A stretch of DNA of 64,000 nt from the human T2T-CHM13v2.0 reference genome, Homo sapiens: the NCBI RefSeq assembly GCF_009914755.1, contig NC_060926.1; one strand, 5' to 3'. The notes beneath the pieces are model-generated. The model saw nothing but the letters and a program-made list of their open reading frames with translations. It had not been told where the DNA came from and did not search any database. Below, in pieces: positions 23,466 through 27,400 of the stretch (positions are counted from its first letter, which is position 1; each line of letters opens with the position of its first letter). The translations under genes and the position numbers were made by a program.

Positions 23466-26400
23466 TTTTTTTTTTTTTTTTTTTTGAGATAAGGTCTCAC
23501 TCTGTCACCCAGGCTGCAGTGCAGTGGTGCAATCACTGCTCACTGAAGCCTCGACCTCCCTGGCTCAAGCAATCCCCTCACCTTAGCCTTCTAAGTAGCT
23601 GGGACTACAGGCGCACACTACCATGCCCAGTTAATTTTGGACTTTTTGTAGAGATGAAGTCTTGCCATGTTGCCCAGGTGAGTCTCAAACGCTTGGGTTC
23701 AAGTGATCTTCCTGCCTCAGCCTCCCAAATGCTGGGATTACAGGCATGGGCCACCCTGCCCCGCGGGCTTTTCTTTTCTTTTCTTTTCTTTTGAGACAGG
23801 GTCACCCAGGCTGGAGTGCAGTGGTGCAATCATAGCTCGCTGTAACCTTGAGCTCTTGGGCTCGAGTGATCGTCCTGCCTCATCCTCGAGTTGCTAGGAT
23901 TAAAGGCACGCACCACCATGCCTAGCTAATTTCCTTTTTTTTTTTTTTTTTGTAGAGACGGGGTCTCGATTTGTTGCCCATGCTGGTCTCAAAACACCTG
24001 GACTTTAGCGATCCTCCCACTCGGCCTCTTGGAAGTGCTGGGATTCCAGGCGGGAGCCGCCGAGCACAGCCTGGGGCCTGGATGTTTATGTGAGACAGTA
24101 GGCGGCACTCTAAGCATCTCGGAACTGTTGGTGTTCGCTTTTCGGCACTCTATTGTATGTCATACCTTGTGCTGCACTCTACTCACGTTTGACTCTTTGT
24201 AGTACACTATGCCTCACTCCTCATCTTGGAATCATTTGCTATACCATACGCCTCAGTCTTTTCGTCTTGGATCTTTTTTTTTTTTTTTTTGAGACGGAGT
24301 TTCGTTCTTGTTGCCCGGGTTGGAGTGCAATGGCGCGATCTCGGCTCACTGCAACTTCCGCCTCCTGGGATCAAGCGACTCTTCAGCCTCAGCCTTCCGC
24401 GTAGCTGGGATTACAGGCGCATGCCACCATGCCCGGCTAATTTTTGCATTTTTAGTAGAGACAGGGTTTCATCATATTGGTCAGGCTGGTCTCAAATTCC
24501 TGACTTCAGGTGATCCGCCCGCCTCGGCCTCCCAAAGTGCTGGAATTACAGGCGTGAGCCACCGCGCCCGGCCTGTCTTGGGATCTTTAGTGGTGCCGGA
24601 TGCCCTAGGTTTTCATCTTGGGATTCTTTGGAGGCCATACGCCCGAGTTATTTTGTTTTGGAATCATTTGGGAGACCGTATGCTCCGGGTTTTTTTTGTT
24701 TTGTTTTTTTGTTTTTGTTTTTGTTTTTGTTTTTTTTTGAGACGGGGTTTCGCTCTCGCCAGGCTGGAGTGCAGTGGCGCGATCTCGGTTCACCGCAACC
24801 TCCGCCTCCCGGGTTCAAGCGATTCTCCTGCCTCAGCTTCCCGAGTAGCTGGGATTACAGGCACGCGCCACTATGCCCGGCTGATTTTTGTATTTTTAGT
24901 AGAGATGGGGTTTCACCATGTTGGCCAGGATGGTTTCCATCTCCTGACCTCATGATCCGCCCGCCTCGGCCTCCCAAAGTGCTGGGATTACAGGCGTGAG
25001 CCACGGCGCTCGACTGTCCCGGTCTGTTTGTCTTGCAATTGTTTGCAGTAGCGTACTCCCTGATTTTTCGTCTTGAAATTCTCTGGGGAACTGCACTCCC
25101 AATCTTTTCATCTTGGAATCCTTTAGCGGACCGTATTGCCCTAGTGCTTTTGTCTTGGCACTGTTTGCAGTGCTGTACACCCCAATCTTTTCGTCTTGAA
25201 AACCTTTGGGATACTGTACCCTTGGTCTTTTAGTCCTGGAATTCTTTGCGGGATCGTATGCACCCGTTTTTCATCTTGGAATCTTTTGGGAGACCGTATG
25301 CCCCAGTCTTTTTGTTGTGGGATTATTTGGGATACTGTATTCACCAGTCTTTCCATCTTGGAATGTTTTGGGAGATTGTATGCTCCAGTTTTTATGGCTT
25401 GGAATCGCTTGCAATGCCCTATGCCCTAGTTATTTCACCTTGGAATATTTTGGGATATCAAATGCCCCAGTCTTTTGTCTTGGAGTCATTTGCAGTGTTG
25501 TATGCGCTAGTCTTTTTATCTTGGAATTATTTGGTGGACTGTACACCCCAATGTTTTCATCATGAAATCTTTTGGGAAACGCTATGTTCCAGTCTTTTCA
25601 TCTTGGAATCTTTTGTAGTGCCATACGACCCAGACTTTTTGTCTTGGAATCTTTAGGGGCAGCTTATGCCCCAGTCTTTTCATTTTGGAATTCTTTGGCG
25701 ACTGTATTCACCAGTTTTTTCATCTCGGAATCTTTTGTGAGATTGTATATCCCAATCTTTTTGTCTTGGAATCGTTTGCAGTGCCATCTGGCCCAATCTT
25801 TTCATTTTGGAACTCTTTGGGGGGACTATACACCCCAGTCTTTTAATCTACGAATCTTTTGGGAGTCCGTATGCCCCAATCTTTTTGTCTTACAATTCTT
25901 TGTGACATTGTACACCCCAGTCTTTTCATCTTGGAATCTTTTGGGAGACAGTATGCCCCAGTCTTTCTGTCTTAGAATCATTTGCAGTGTCATACACCCC
26001 AGTCTTTTAATTTTGGAATCGTTTGCAGTGCGGTATTTCCTAGTTTTTTTTCTCTTGGAATTATTTGGGGGACTATATACCACAGTCTTTTCATCTTGGA
26101 ATTTTTCAGGGAACCGTATACTCCAGTCTTTTTATCTTGGAATCATTTGCAGTGTTTTACTCCCTAGTCTTTTTTTTTTTTTTTTTTTTTTAATGGAGTC
26201 TGGCTCTGTCGCCCAGGCTGGAGTGCAGTGGCGTGATCTCGGCTCACTGCAACCTCCGCCTCCCGGGTTCAAGCGATTCTTCTGCCTCAGCCTCCTGAGT
26301 AGCTAGAACTACAGGCAACTGCTACCATGCCCGGCTAATTTTGTGTATTTTTAGTAGAGATGGGGTTTCATCGTGTTAGCCAGGATGGTCTCCATCTCCT

Positions 26401-26470
26401 GACCTCGTGTTCCGCCCGCCTAGGCCTCCCAAAGTCCTGGGATTACAGGCGTGAGCCACTGTGCCTAGCC
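23466..26470 (-). mobile_element. Alus at 23466-23765, 23768-24073, 24274-24573, 24690-25013 and 26170-26470 (last three inside the 41-bp array)
   Basis: Alu consensus, poly(T) at left. Confidence 0.92.
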
Positions 26471-27400
26471 ATTCCCTAGCCTTTTCGTCTTGGAATCATT
26501 TGTAGTGTCATACGCCCCAGTTCTTTCATCTTGGAATTCTTTAGGGGACCGTGTGCCCCAGTGTTTCCATCTTGGGATCACTTGCAGGGCTGTACTCTTC
26601 AAATCTTTGGGGACACTGTATTATGCCCCAGTCTTTCCCATCTTGGAATCTTTCCAGAGACCCTATGCCCAGTCTTTTTGTCTTGGACTTATTTGCAGGG
26701 CTATATGCCCCAGGCTTTTCATCCTGGAATCTTTTGAGAGATCGCATGCCCCAGCCTTTCCATCCTGGGATCATTTGCAGTGCTGGACTCCCTAATCTTT
26801 TTGTGTCGTAATCGTTTGCGGTGTCATCTTGGAATTATCTTGTCATCTTGGAAGTGTCTTTTCATCTTGGAATTATTTCAGGGACTGTAAGTCCCAGTCA
26901 TCTGTCTTGGAATTGTTTTCTGGGATGGATGCCCCAATCGTTTCGTTTTGGGGTCTTTGGGGAATCGTATGCCCCAGTGTTATTGTTTCAGGATTGTTTC
27001 AGGATTCTTTGCAGTACCGTGCACCGCAGTCTTTTCATCTTAGAATCCTTTGGGGTACTCCCGGTTCATCTTGGAATTATCTGGAAGACCGTATGCCCCT
27101 GTTTTTTTCAAAGTACCACAGTTTTAAACATTTATGTTCACCTCTTGAGAGACATCTTGGTTACTTCCAGTTGCCCCAGTTTTTTTGTCTTGGAATCTTT
27201 GGAGGTACTGTATTCTCCCTCTTTTTGTCTTGGAATCATTTGCGGTGCTGTACACCCCAGTCTTCTCGTCTTACAATTCTTTAGGGGTAAAATATGCTCC
27301 AGTCTTTTCATCTTGGGATTCTTTCAGTGAACGCAGGTCCCAGTTTTTTTGTCTTGGAATTCTTTATGGGACCACACACCCCGGTCTTCCTGTCTTGGAA
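24215..27400. repeat. Diverged 41-bp tandem repeat array (~55 units), interrupted by three Alus
   Basis: CTTGGAAT-like core recurs at 25357, 25398, 25439, 25479, 25520, 25561, 25602, 25643, 25684 (40-41-bp steps); approximate consensus CCCCAGTCTTTTCATCTTGGAATCTTTTGGGAGACCGTATG. Confidence 0.92.

What the first reader, a model, noticed from the sequence alone, without database searches (positions are those of the whole stretch)
24215..27400. Old 41-bp tandem array in the GPR1-ZDBF2 imprinted interval
Seen: ~55 units with near-constant 41-bp spacing despite heavy substitution, each with a conserved CCCAGTCTTTT(C/T)(A/G)TCTTGGAAT half and a variable half that often carries a CpG. Three AluS-type elements sit in its T-tracts, so the array predates them. 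I do not recognise it as a named human satellite. Knowledge: tandem repeats often adjoin imprinted DMRs. Recalled but unverified: the human ZDBF2 intergenic DMR begins roughly 25 kb upstream of the gene, i.e. about here. Inference: a possible multivalent binding platform (zinc-finger protein, or TEAD-like TGGAAT sites) or DMR boundary/nucleation element.
Basis: partly seen in the sequence, partly recalled or inferred. Interest (0 to 1): 0.7.

Follow-up and report, generated by a model that had tools for sequence, protein, structure and literature searches.

The report
Old repeat inside ZDBF2 imprint region
A one-off, decayed array of about 60 41-base repeats lies inside the known paternally methylated region upstream of the human imprinted gene ZDBF2; it likely acts only as CpG-rich ground, where two Alu insertions made an island-like patch carrying the published maternal-allele active mark, rather than as a protein-binding platform.

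Summary
The array is real, found only at this locus, and slightly longer than reported (about 24078-27490, about 60 units, 65% mean identity, three Alus with target-site duplications). It lies wholly inside a published ZDBF2 sub-DMR (window 23627-29091; paternal 0.84, maternal 0.17; somatic; ZNF445 peak). It abuts an old LTR-type remnant with a serine-tRNA primer-site-like stretch; a sister copy of that remnant 13 kb away has no array. The 'conserved half' is largely explained by CpG decay and 2-3 old unit subtypes, and only one TEAD-type GGAATG occurs, so a multivalent platform is unsupported. Published maternal H3K4me3 SNVs map to the left end (23825-24744). There, two inserted Alus keep the most CpGs of 47 Alus in the window and form an island-like patch. 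Best reading (0.6): a neutral, decaying minisatellite that supplies CpGs and Alu landing sites and is methylated in passing by paternal GPR1-AS transcription. Boldest reading (0.2): a primate analogue of the mouse Rasgrf1 41-nt repeat/LTR element, needed to set or hold this DMR block. I found no description of the array in the papers searched.

The parts
24078..27490 (+). 41-bp tandem array, about 60 units including variant terminal units, interrupted by three Alus and one short foreign piece
24078..24215 (+). Left terminal GC-richer variant units, more like the right terminal units than like the interior
   Evidence: left vs right end score 60; vs interior at most 39
24273..24574 (-). Alu insertion 1 with target-site duplication; 19 CpG, second-highest retention of 47 Alus
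24691..25012 (-). Alu insertion 2 with a decayed target-site duplication; 21 CpG, highest retention of 47 Alus
26173..26470 (-). Alu insertion 3 with target-site duplication; 12 CpG, ordinary retention
24076..25012 (.). CpG-island-like patch (937 bp, GC 0.51, CpG o/e 0.85, 52 CpG); the deepest published maternal-allele H3K4me3 SNVs map into it (24592-24744)
27110..27172 (.). Non-unit piece matching two other chromosomes at 80-81%; resembles an old L1 3' end (name recalled, not tested)
27395..27492 (+). Right terminal GC-richer variant units; homologous to 40595-40700 in the sister copy
   Evidence: score 34; 0 of 1859 background stretches reach it
24102..24107 (-). TGCCGC (ZFP57-type motif) in the left terminal units; no ZFP57 peak is listed for this DMR block
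27436..27441 (-). TGCCGC (ZFP57-type motif) in the right terminal units
27493..27694 (-). Leader-like stretch found only here and in the sister copy (73-74% identity)
27695..27712 (-). Primer-binding-site-like stretch, 11/15 to the 3' end of a human tRNA-Ser(TGA) gene, directly at the LTR-type repeat's end
27713..28040 (-). Dispersed LTR-type repeat (42 matches from 40 scored of 58 candidates) with AATAAA on the minus strand; family name MER76-like is recalled only
23068..23462 (.). A different dispersed LTR-type repeat (217 candidates); three fetched copies do not continue into the array; name MER21C-like is recalled only
23627..29091 (.). Published paternal somatic sub-DMR (hg38 chr2:206249709-206255173) mapped onto the window
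40595..41810 (-). Local sister copy of terminal unit + leader + primer-site-like stretch (40887-40904) + LTR-type repeat, with its own Alu and no array

Best explanation
The array is a single-locus minisatellite beside an old LTR-type remnant that likely stopped homogenising before its Alus inserted, has likely decayed neutrally since, and is likely methylated only in passing by paternal GPR1-AS transcription. Shown here: 41-bp period, 2-3 unit subtypes, no higher-order period, one locus, a position inside the published sub-DMR and inside an intron of CMKLR2-AS/GPR1-AS, and 3.2-fold more CpG than non-Alu background. Inferred steps: (1) GC-richer units in the leader of the LTR element expanded into the array. 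(2) The T-tracts on one strand gave L1-endonuclease-type target sites, so three Alus landed in one orientation. (3) The two left Alus and the terminal units stayed largely unmethylated in the germ line, kept their CpGs and formed an island-like patch. (4) After fertilisation, paternal GPR1-AS transcription through the region brings de novo methylation, as shown for mouse Liz. The maternal copy stays unmethylated and carries H3K4me3, and ZNF445 would bind the methylated copy. On this reading CpG density may matter, but the unit sequence does not.
For: Non-CpG deviation from the column majority is 0.134 in the conserved half. In the variable half it is 0.207, falling to 0.140 within subtypes against 0.170+-0.013 for clustering of shuffled columns. 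9 of the 18 variable-half columns are CpG-touched. This decay exceeds that of the inserted Alus (0.06-0.10), as neutral ageing predicts. One GGAATG in the array. CpG density is 24.5/kb against 7.6/kb background. T-tracts ending in a purine: 34 on the + strand, 1 on the - strand. The sub-DMR is typed 'somatic' and is partially methylated in monkey and chimp but not mouse (PMC9255983 suppl. file 4). All 11 H3K4me3 SNV-sample rows of the block map to 23825-24744, and in NA19240 5 of 5 SNVs are >=99% maternal. The two left Alus rank 1 and 2 of 47 for CpG retention. Transcription-dependent sDMR in mouse: passages of PMC12129452. The 25-kb interval is poorly conserved across eutherians (PMC3950344). 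The mouse 37-bp DMR1 unit is unrelated (54% of 200 shuffles score as high).
Against: This block has the largest allelic difference of the four ZDBF2 DMR rows (0.66) and is the most consistent across people (80 of 86). It is the only one of the four with a ZNF445 peak, and the position of the peak within the 5.5 kb is unknown to me, so it could sit on the units. Seven of 28 non-CpG columns deviate by <=0.04, which weak constraint could also give. One unit position keeps 13 CG against 24 TG/CA, more than old Alus of the window keep. No SNV rows beyond 24744 may mean no heterozygous sites rather than no mark. No cross-species alignment was possible. The analogous mouse Rasgrf1 repeats are required in cis.
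Confidence: 0.6

Rival explanations
1. Rasgrf1-like cis element: the repeat plus LTR remnant, with its CpG-rich ends, is needed to set or hold paternal methylation of the 5'-most DMR block, for example by anchoring ZNF445/KAP1, and so fixes the upstream edge of the primate ZDBF2 domain.
For: The same layout as mouse Rasgrf1: 41-nt repeats, an LTR element, a paternally methylated region about 25-30 kb upstream of a paternally expressed gene. The mapped block starts about 450 bp before the array and ends 1.6 kb after it. ZNF445 peak and the strongest allelic difference are here. Both TGCCGC motifs of the block lie in the terminal units.
Against: Rasgrf1 methylation is set in the male germ line; this block is typed somatic and its Alus keep CpGs. 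The Rasgrf1 repeats are described as GC-rich with Sp1 sites; this array is 38% T. Units are only 65% alike. No ZFP57 peak is listed. Mouse keeps Zdbf2 imprinting although no partially methylated orthologue of this block is listed for mouse.
Confidence: 0.22
2. The island-like left end is a cryptic promoter active on the maternal allele, or the adjacent LTR drives a leftward transcript through the array, opposing GPR1-AS and keeping the maternal copy unmethylated.
For: Maternal-only H3K4me3 of 251-255 reads at single SNVs. The patch is the densest CpG stretch of the window outside the ZDBF2 promoter (53 against 29 per 937 bp). The LTR-type repeat points leftwards.
Against: The annotation given with the finding lists no transcript starting here. 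H3K4me3 also marks unmethylated CpG-dense DNA without transcription (established knowledge; the mouse intergenic CGI carries it). No H3K4me3 SNV row maps to the LTR.
Confidence: 0.1
3. Multivalent binding platform for TEAD or a zinc-finger protein reading the conserved half of each unit.
For: 30 TGGAAT sites at regular spacing; several T/A columns are 94-98% invariant; six relaxed TEAD-like matches.
Against: GGAATG occurs once, CATTCC never; 28 of 30 TGGAAT continue with C or T. The constraint contrast is mostly explained by CpG decay and subtype. No periodic binding data were seen.
Confidence: 0.08
4. Origin only: the array is an ordinary internal part of a dispersed LTR-retroelement family and recurs elsewhere in the genome.
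For: It lies about 200 bp inside a primer-site-like stretch next to an LTR-type repeat, and the terminal unit is shared with the sister copy.
Against: No other array copy in five genome searches. The leader matches only the sister copy. 0 of 9 dispersed LTR copies examined reach 11/15 at the boundary (best 10). 0 of 17 such loci hold a 41-bp repeat within about 1.5 kb. The DNA searches score few candidates, so old copies may be missed.
Confidence: 0.1

Closest known systems
Mouse Rasgrf1 ICR repeats (41-nt tandem repeats beside an RMER4B LTR; 10.1101/297465, PMC5034545)
   Same: 41-nt period, 1.6-2.5 kb length, an LTR element alongside, a paternally methylated region 25-30 kb upstream of a paternally expressed gene.
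   Different: Rasgrf1 repeats direct germ-line methylation, drive a piRNA-targeted RNA, are described as GC-rich and are proven by deletion. This array is T-rich, 65% alike, inside a somatic DMR and untested. Sequence homology was not tested; the equal period is probably coincidence.
Five 37-bp repeats in mouse Zdbf2 DMR1 (PMC2926594)
   Same: Direct repeats of similar size in the paternal DMR of the same locus; function unknown.
   Different: No sequence similarity above shuffles. Five copies against about 60. The human DMRh1 amplicon, in the part matched to mouse DMR1, is at 30149-30358, outside the array.
Mouse intergenic CpG island about 25 kb upstream of Zdbf2 (PMC3950344)
   Same: An H3K4me3-marked CpG-dense patch at the 5' border of the domain, at a similar distance.
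   Different: The mouse island is unmethylated on both alleles. The human patch is built from repeats and Alus and lies in a block that is methylated on the paternal allele. Orthology was not tested.
VNTR-containing gDMRs, SVA and LTR12 elements protected from demethylation (PMC4263407)
   Same: Tandem repeats linked to LTR elements and to imprinted methylation in humans.
   Different: Those are methylated in gametes and resist erasure. This block gains its methylation after fertilisation.

Membership tests
Named or dispersed human satellite | Copies at several loci | tested here: not met
   20 of 23 core hits here, control 4; 4 of 4 variable-half hits here; DNA searches give only this locus for the units
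Named or dispersed human satellite | Match to a Dfam/Repbase model | not testable with these tools
   No repeat library is held; Rfam gave 0 matches at 23000-29000
Minisatellite/VNTR | Head-to-tail units of 10-60 bp | tested here: met
Minisatellite/VNTR | Near-identical units, as in actively turning-over arrays | tested here: not met
   Mean pairwise identity 65%, range 46-93%
Minisatellite/VNTR | Copy-number polymorphism among people | not testable with these tools
   One human assembly only
Rasgrf1-type imprinting repeat | 41-nt tandem repeats at a paternally methylated region with an LTR alongside | tested here: met
Rasgrf1-type imprinting repeat | Methylation set in the male germ line | tested here: not met
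   Published type 'somatic'; CpG retention of the left Alus
Rasgrf1-type imprinting repeat | Promoter of a piRNA-targeted RNA; required in cis for methylation | not testable with these tools
   Needs RNA data and a deletion
Rasgrf1-type imprinting repeat | Sequence homology of the units | not tested
   No Rasgrf1 unit sequence came from any call
5' leader repeat of an LTR retroelement | LTR with poly(A) signal followed by a tRNA primer-binding site | tested here: met
   11/15 to tRNA-Ser(TGA) in both local copies, chance about 0.0008 per site; uncorrected for choosing the tRNA after seeing the site
5' leader repeat of an LTR retroelement | Matching second LTR beyond the array | tested here: not met
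   The left LTR-type repeat does not align to the right one
5' leader repeat of an LTR retroelement | Same array in other family members | tested here: inconclusive
   The sister copy has only a terminal-type unit and is cut by another repeat; no other leader-bearing copy was found
Canonical germ-line ICR | Clustered TGCCGC motifs bound by ZFP57 | tested here: not met
   2 motifs, 3.3 kb apart; no ZFP57 peak listed
TEAD enhancer cluster | Repeated GGAATG/CATTCC cores | tested here: not met
   1 GGAATG, 0 CATTCC

The most novel reading that the evidence does not exclude
A retroelement-born 41-bp array and the Alus it attracted built a new imprinted CpG island in primates. This island anchors ZNF445 and fixes the upstream block of the human ZDBF2 domain: an independent re-invention of the Rasgrf1 repeat-plus-LTR design, working on a post-fertilisation DMR.
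Probability: 0.2. Interest if true: 0.75.

Novelty: new member of a known kind. Interest (0 to 1): 0.42.

Why it matters
Why tandem repeats sit at imprinted DMRs is an old open question, with few deletions to go on. This array gives a bounded, single-locus human test case inside the most consistently imprinted block upstream of ZDBF2, a gene that controls neonatal feeding and growth in mice. Its parts can be edited separately: units, Alu pair, terminal motifs and LTR. If the best reading holds, it shows how repeat debris alone can yield a strong allele-specific CpG island without a selected sequence. If the rival holds, it would be a human counterpart of the Rasgrf1 element.

Tried and rejected
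Coding origin: the longest stop-free runs are 94-124 codons on the minus strand and 172-246 on the stop-poor plus strand, and a 41-bp period is not a multiple of three; rejected. Higher-order repeat: identity by lag is flat (0.64-0.70 for lags 1-12), so TRF's 123/165 periods are not a true higher-order unit. Orthology with the mouse 37-bp repeat: no better than shuffles or 50 other window stretches. A 43-bp array on chr6 (L050), found through a shared 8-mer: score 146 against 51+-11 on a naive null, but only p=0.027 once the shared anchor is fixed, and E 0.25 against the unit profile; left as inconclusive, probably unrelated. Array derived from the left LTR-type repeat: three fetched copies do not extend into it. 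Array derived from the end of the right LTR-type repeat: a 14-bp likeness only (E 0.91; score 20.6 against background maximum 24.4); unresolved. CTCF: two strict degenerate patterns gave no hit in the window and a loose one gave hits at 25782 and 27607 (patterns recalled); uninformative, although the paper lists a CTCF site within the block. Rfam: none. A whole-genome profile search could not be run, so the unit profile was scanned only over the window and the loci in hand. A search for recalled hg19 DMR coordinates in main texts found nothing.
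Full report
Observation. The array is there. TRF reports period 41 at 25098-26149 (25.7 copies, 64% matches). Autocorrelation peaks at lag 41 (0.56 against a median of 0.27; four control stretches at most 0.32), and 27 of 27 spacings in the uninterrupted block are 40-42 bp. A wrap-around alignment and unit scoring extend it to about 24078-27490. Both ends consist of GC-richer variant units that resemble each other more than the interior (score 60 against at most 39). 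The Alu-free length of 2,491 bp gives about 61 unit lengths. Three antisense Alus sit in T-tracts with target-site duplications; I could not type their subfamily. A piece of about 60 bp at 27110-27172 is foreign and matches two other chromosomes at 80-81%; from recall it resembles an old L1 3' end.

Unit anatomy. Among 48 regular units (irregular and terminal ones left out), mean pairwise identity is 65%. Two to three subtypes are real (silhouette 0.147 against 0.061+-0.009 for shuffled columns), and identity does not rise at any lag from 1 to 12. Non-CpG deviation is 0.134 in the conserved half and 0.207 in the variable half, where 9 of 18 columns are CpG-touched. Within subtypes the variable half falls to 0.140; part of that fall is circular, since shuffled columns give 0.170+-0.013. 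Seven of 28 non-CpG columns deviate by 0.04 or less, so weak constraint is not excluded. Of 30 TGGAAT sites only one continues with G.

Copy number. The core 22-mer at up to two mismatches has 23 hits in the genome, 20 of them here; the reversed control has 4. A variable-half 22-mer has 4 of 4 hits here. DNA searches with both halves found units only at this locus, but they score few candidates, so old copies could be missed. A spaced pattern (44 hits, 8 here, control 28) led to a 43-bp array on chr6 whose likeness is marginal (p=0.027 with the shared anchor fixed).

Surroundings. To the right, 27713-28040 is a dispersed LTR-type repeat with AATAAA on the minus strand. Directly at its end, on that strand, lies a stretch matching the 3' end of a human tRNA-Ser(TGA) gene at 11 of 15 positions. 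The chance is about 0.0008 per site, uncorrected for my choosing serine after seeing the site. A sister copy of terminal unit, leader, primer-site-like stretch and LTR lies at 40595-41810. It also scores 11/15, partly at other positions. The two LTR copies are 81% identical, against at most 73% to 16 dispersed copies, which points to an old local duplication (inference). The sister copy has no array and is cut on that side by another repeat. The leader matches nowhere else. To the left, 23068-23462 is a different dispersed repeat whose three fetched copies do not run into the array. The family names MER76-like and MER21C-like are recalled and come from no call.

Place in the imprinted domain. 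PMC9255983 lists four ZDBF2 DMR rows. I fitted the hg38-to-window offset on CpG and TGCCGC counts: 444 offsets passed a loose filter, and one put three of four DMR ends on CpGs, with 159 against 160 and 231 against 231 CpGs. It agrees with hg19 exon offsets plus a recalled hg19-hg38 shift. The first block maps to 23627-29091 and contains the whole array. It has paternal methylation 0.84 and maternal 0.17, is typed somatic, has a ZNF445 peak, and is partially methylated in 80 of 86 people and in monkey and chimp but not mouse. Its two TGCCGC motifs are at 24102 and 27436, in the terminal units; no ZFP57 peak is listed. PMC7672439 also names ZDBF2 among 13 ZNF445-bound DMRs. I saw no peak coordinates, and the data named for these peaks come from HEK293T and over-expressing ES cells. 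The earlier human DMRh1 amplicon lies outside the array, at 30149-30358.

Where the chromatin signal is. All 11 H3K4me3 SNV-sample rows for this block map to 23825-24744, deepest at 24592-24744 (up to 255 reads). In NA19240, 5 of 5 SNVs are at least 99% maternal. No row falls further right, which may mean no signal or no heterozygous site. The stretch 24076-25012 meets the usual island criteria (GC 0.51, o/e 0.85) and is the densest CpG stretch of the window outside the ZDBF2 promoter. Its two Alus rank first and second of 47 for CpG retention: 21 and 19 CpGs against 9.0+-3.3, maximum 17, for 27 other young-type Alus (30 of 47 kept by divergence). I read this as long germ-line hypomethylation (inference), in line with the somatic type. 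The units themselves hold 24.5 CpG/kb against 7.6 in non-Alu background.

How it most likely works (0.6). The array expanded in or beside the leader of an LTR element, stopped homogenising, collected Alus in its T-tracts, and now supplies CpG-rich DNA in an intron of GPR1-AS. Paternal GPR1-AS transcription after fertilisation would bring methylation, as shown for mouse Liz. The maternal copy stays unmethylated with H3K4me3, and ZNF445 would bind the methylated copy (methylation dependence is suggested). The sequence anatomy and the mapping are shown; the order of events and the neutrality of the units are inferred. The rivals are a Rasgrf1-like cis element (0.22), a cryptic maternal or LTR promoter (0.10) and a multivalent factor platform (0.08).

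Comparison. The closest known system is mouse Rasgrf1, where 41-nt repeats beside an RMER4B LTR are required for paternal methylation. The layout matches, but the germ-line origin of methylation does not, so this array may work somewhat like it but is not a member. Mouse Zdbf2 DMR1 has five 37-bp repeats; their unit is unrelated. The mouse intergenic island 25 kb upstream is unmethylated on both alleles, unlike this patch.

Novelty and sources. Searches gave no paper describing this array. 'Tandem' occurs 0 times in the main texts of PMC12129452 and PMC2926594. The library lacks most subscription papers, and genome-browser repeat tracks probably mark part of the array (inference). What I saw of each paper: PMC12129452, PMC3975056, PMC11472158, PMC6317318, PMC4263407, 10.1101/297465 and PMC5034545, passages only; PMC2926594, passages, plus passages and part 2 of supplement 1 (file 2 not searchable); PMC3857343, parts 1-2 of 5, plus passages and part 3 of its supplement; PMC3950344, passages and section 12; PMC9255983, passages and supplement rows; PMC7672439, passages and one supplement search without a ZDBF2 row. 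The supplements of PMC3950344 and PMC3975056 could not be read; they hold human primer positions and DMR tables that bear on sperm methylation here. The point on neonatal feeding rests on passages.

Verdict. A real single-locus old minisatellite, not described in the papers searched, inside the strongest block of a known DMR. Its likely role is passive, but a cis role is cheap to test. New member of a known kind; interest 0.42.

Noticed in passing
window 40595-41810: Local sister copy of the LTR-type element with its primer-site-like stretch and leader. The two copies here are the only leader-bearing ones my searches found, and both lie inside published ZDBF2 DMR blocks.
   Followed up: yes
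L050:1403-1919 (G000:C6, about 170.087 Mb): A 43-bp tandem array (11.8 copies, 77%) sharing a 9-nt anchor with this one; its left flank looks like an MLT1-type LTR (recalled). The likeness beyond the anchor is marginal (p=0.027).
   Followed up: partly
window 40163-40593: A third dispersed LTR-type repeat (65-78% to seven loci) sits exactly where the sister copy's array would begin.
   Followed up: partly
window 38297-38449: A piece of the same family as 23068-23462, in the opposite orientation (64-68% to L090-L092).
   Followed up: no
window 38896-39378 (-): A 160-codon stop-free frame in an AT-rich stretch of the last CMKLR2-AS exon; no Pfam match at cut-off (best E 0.06).
   Followed up: partly
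window 60865-61043 and 62397-62579: A 95%-identical direct repeat of about 180 bp inside a ZDBF2 intron, 1.5 kb apart.
   Followed up: no
window 49997-50249: Two tandem copies of 124 bp (86%) just downstream of the ZDBF2 promoter island, near the fourth published DMR row.
   Followed up: no
window 21275-21325 and 21868-21918: A perfect 51-bp inverted repeat with about 540 bp between the arms.
   Followed up: no
window 23801-24065: An old, diverged Alu just left of the array keeps 12 CpGs where others of similar divergence keep 0-9, extending the CpG-retention zone leftwards.
   Followed up: partly
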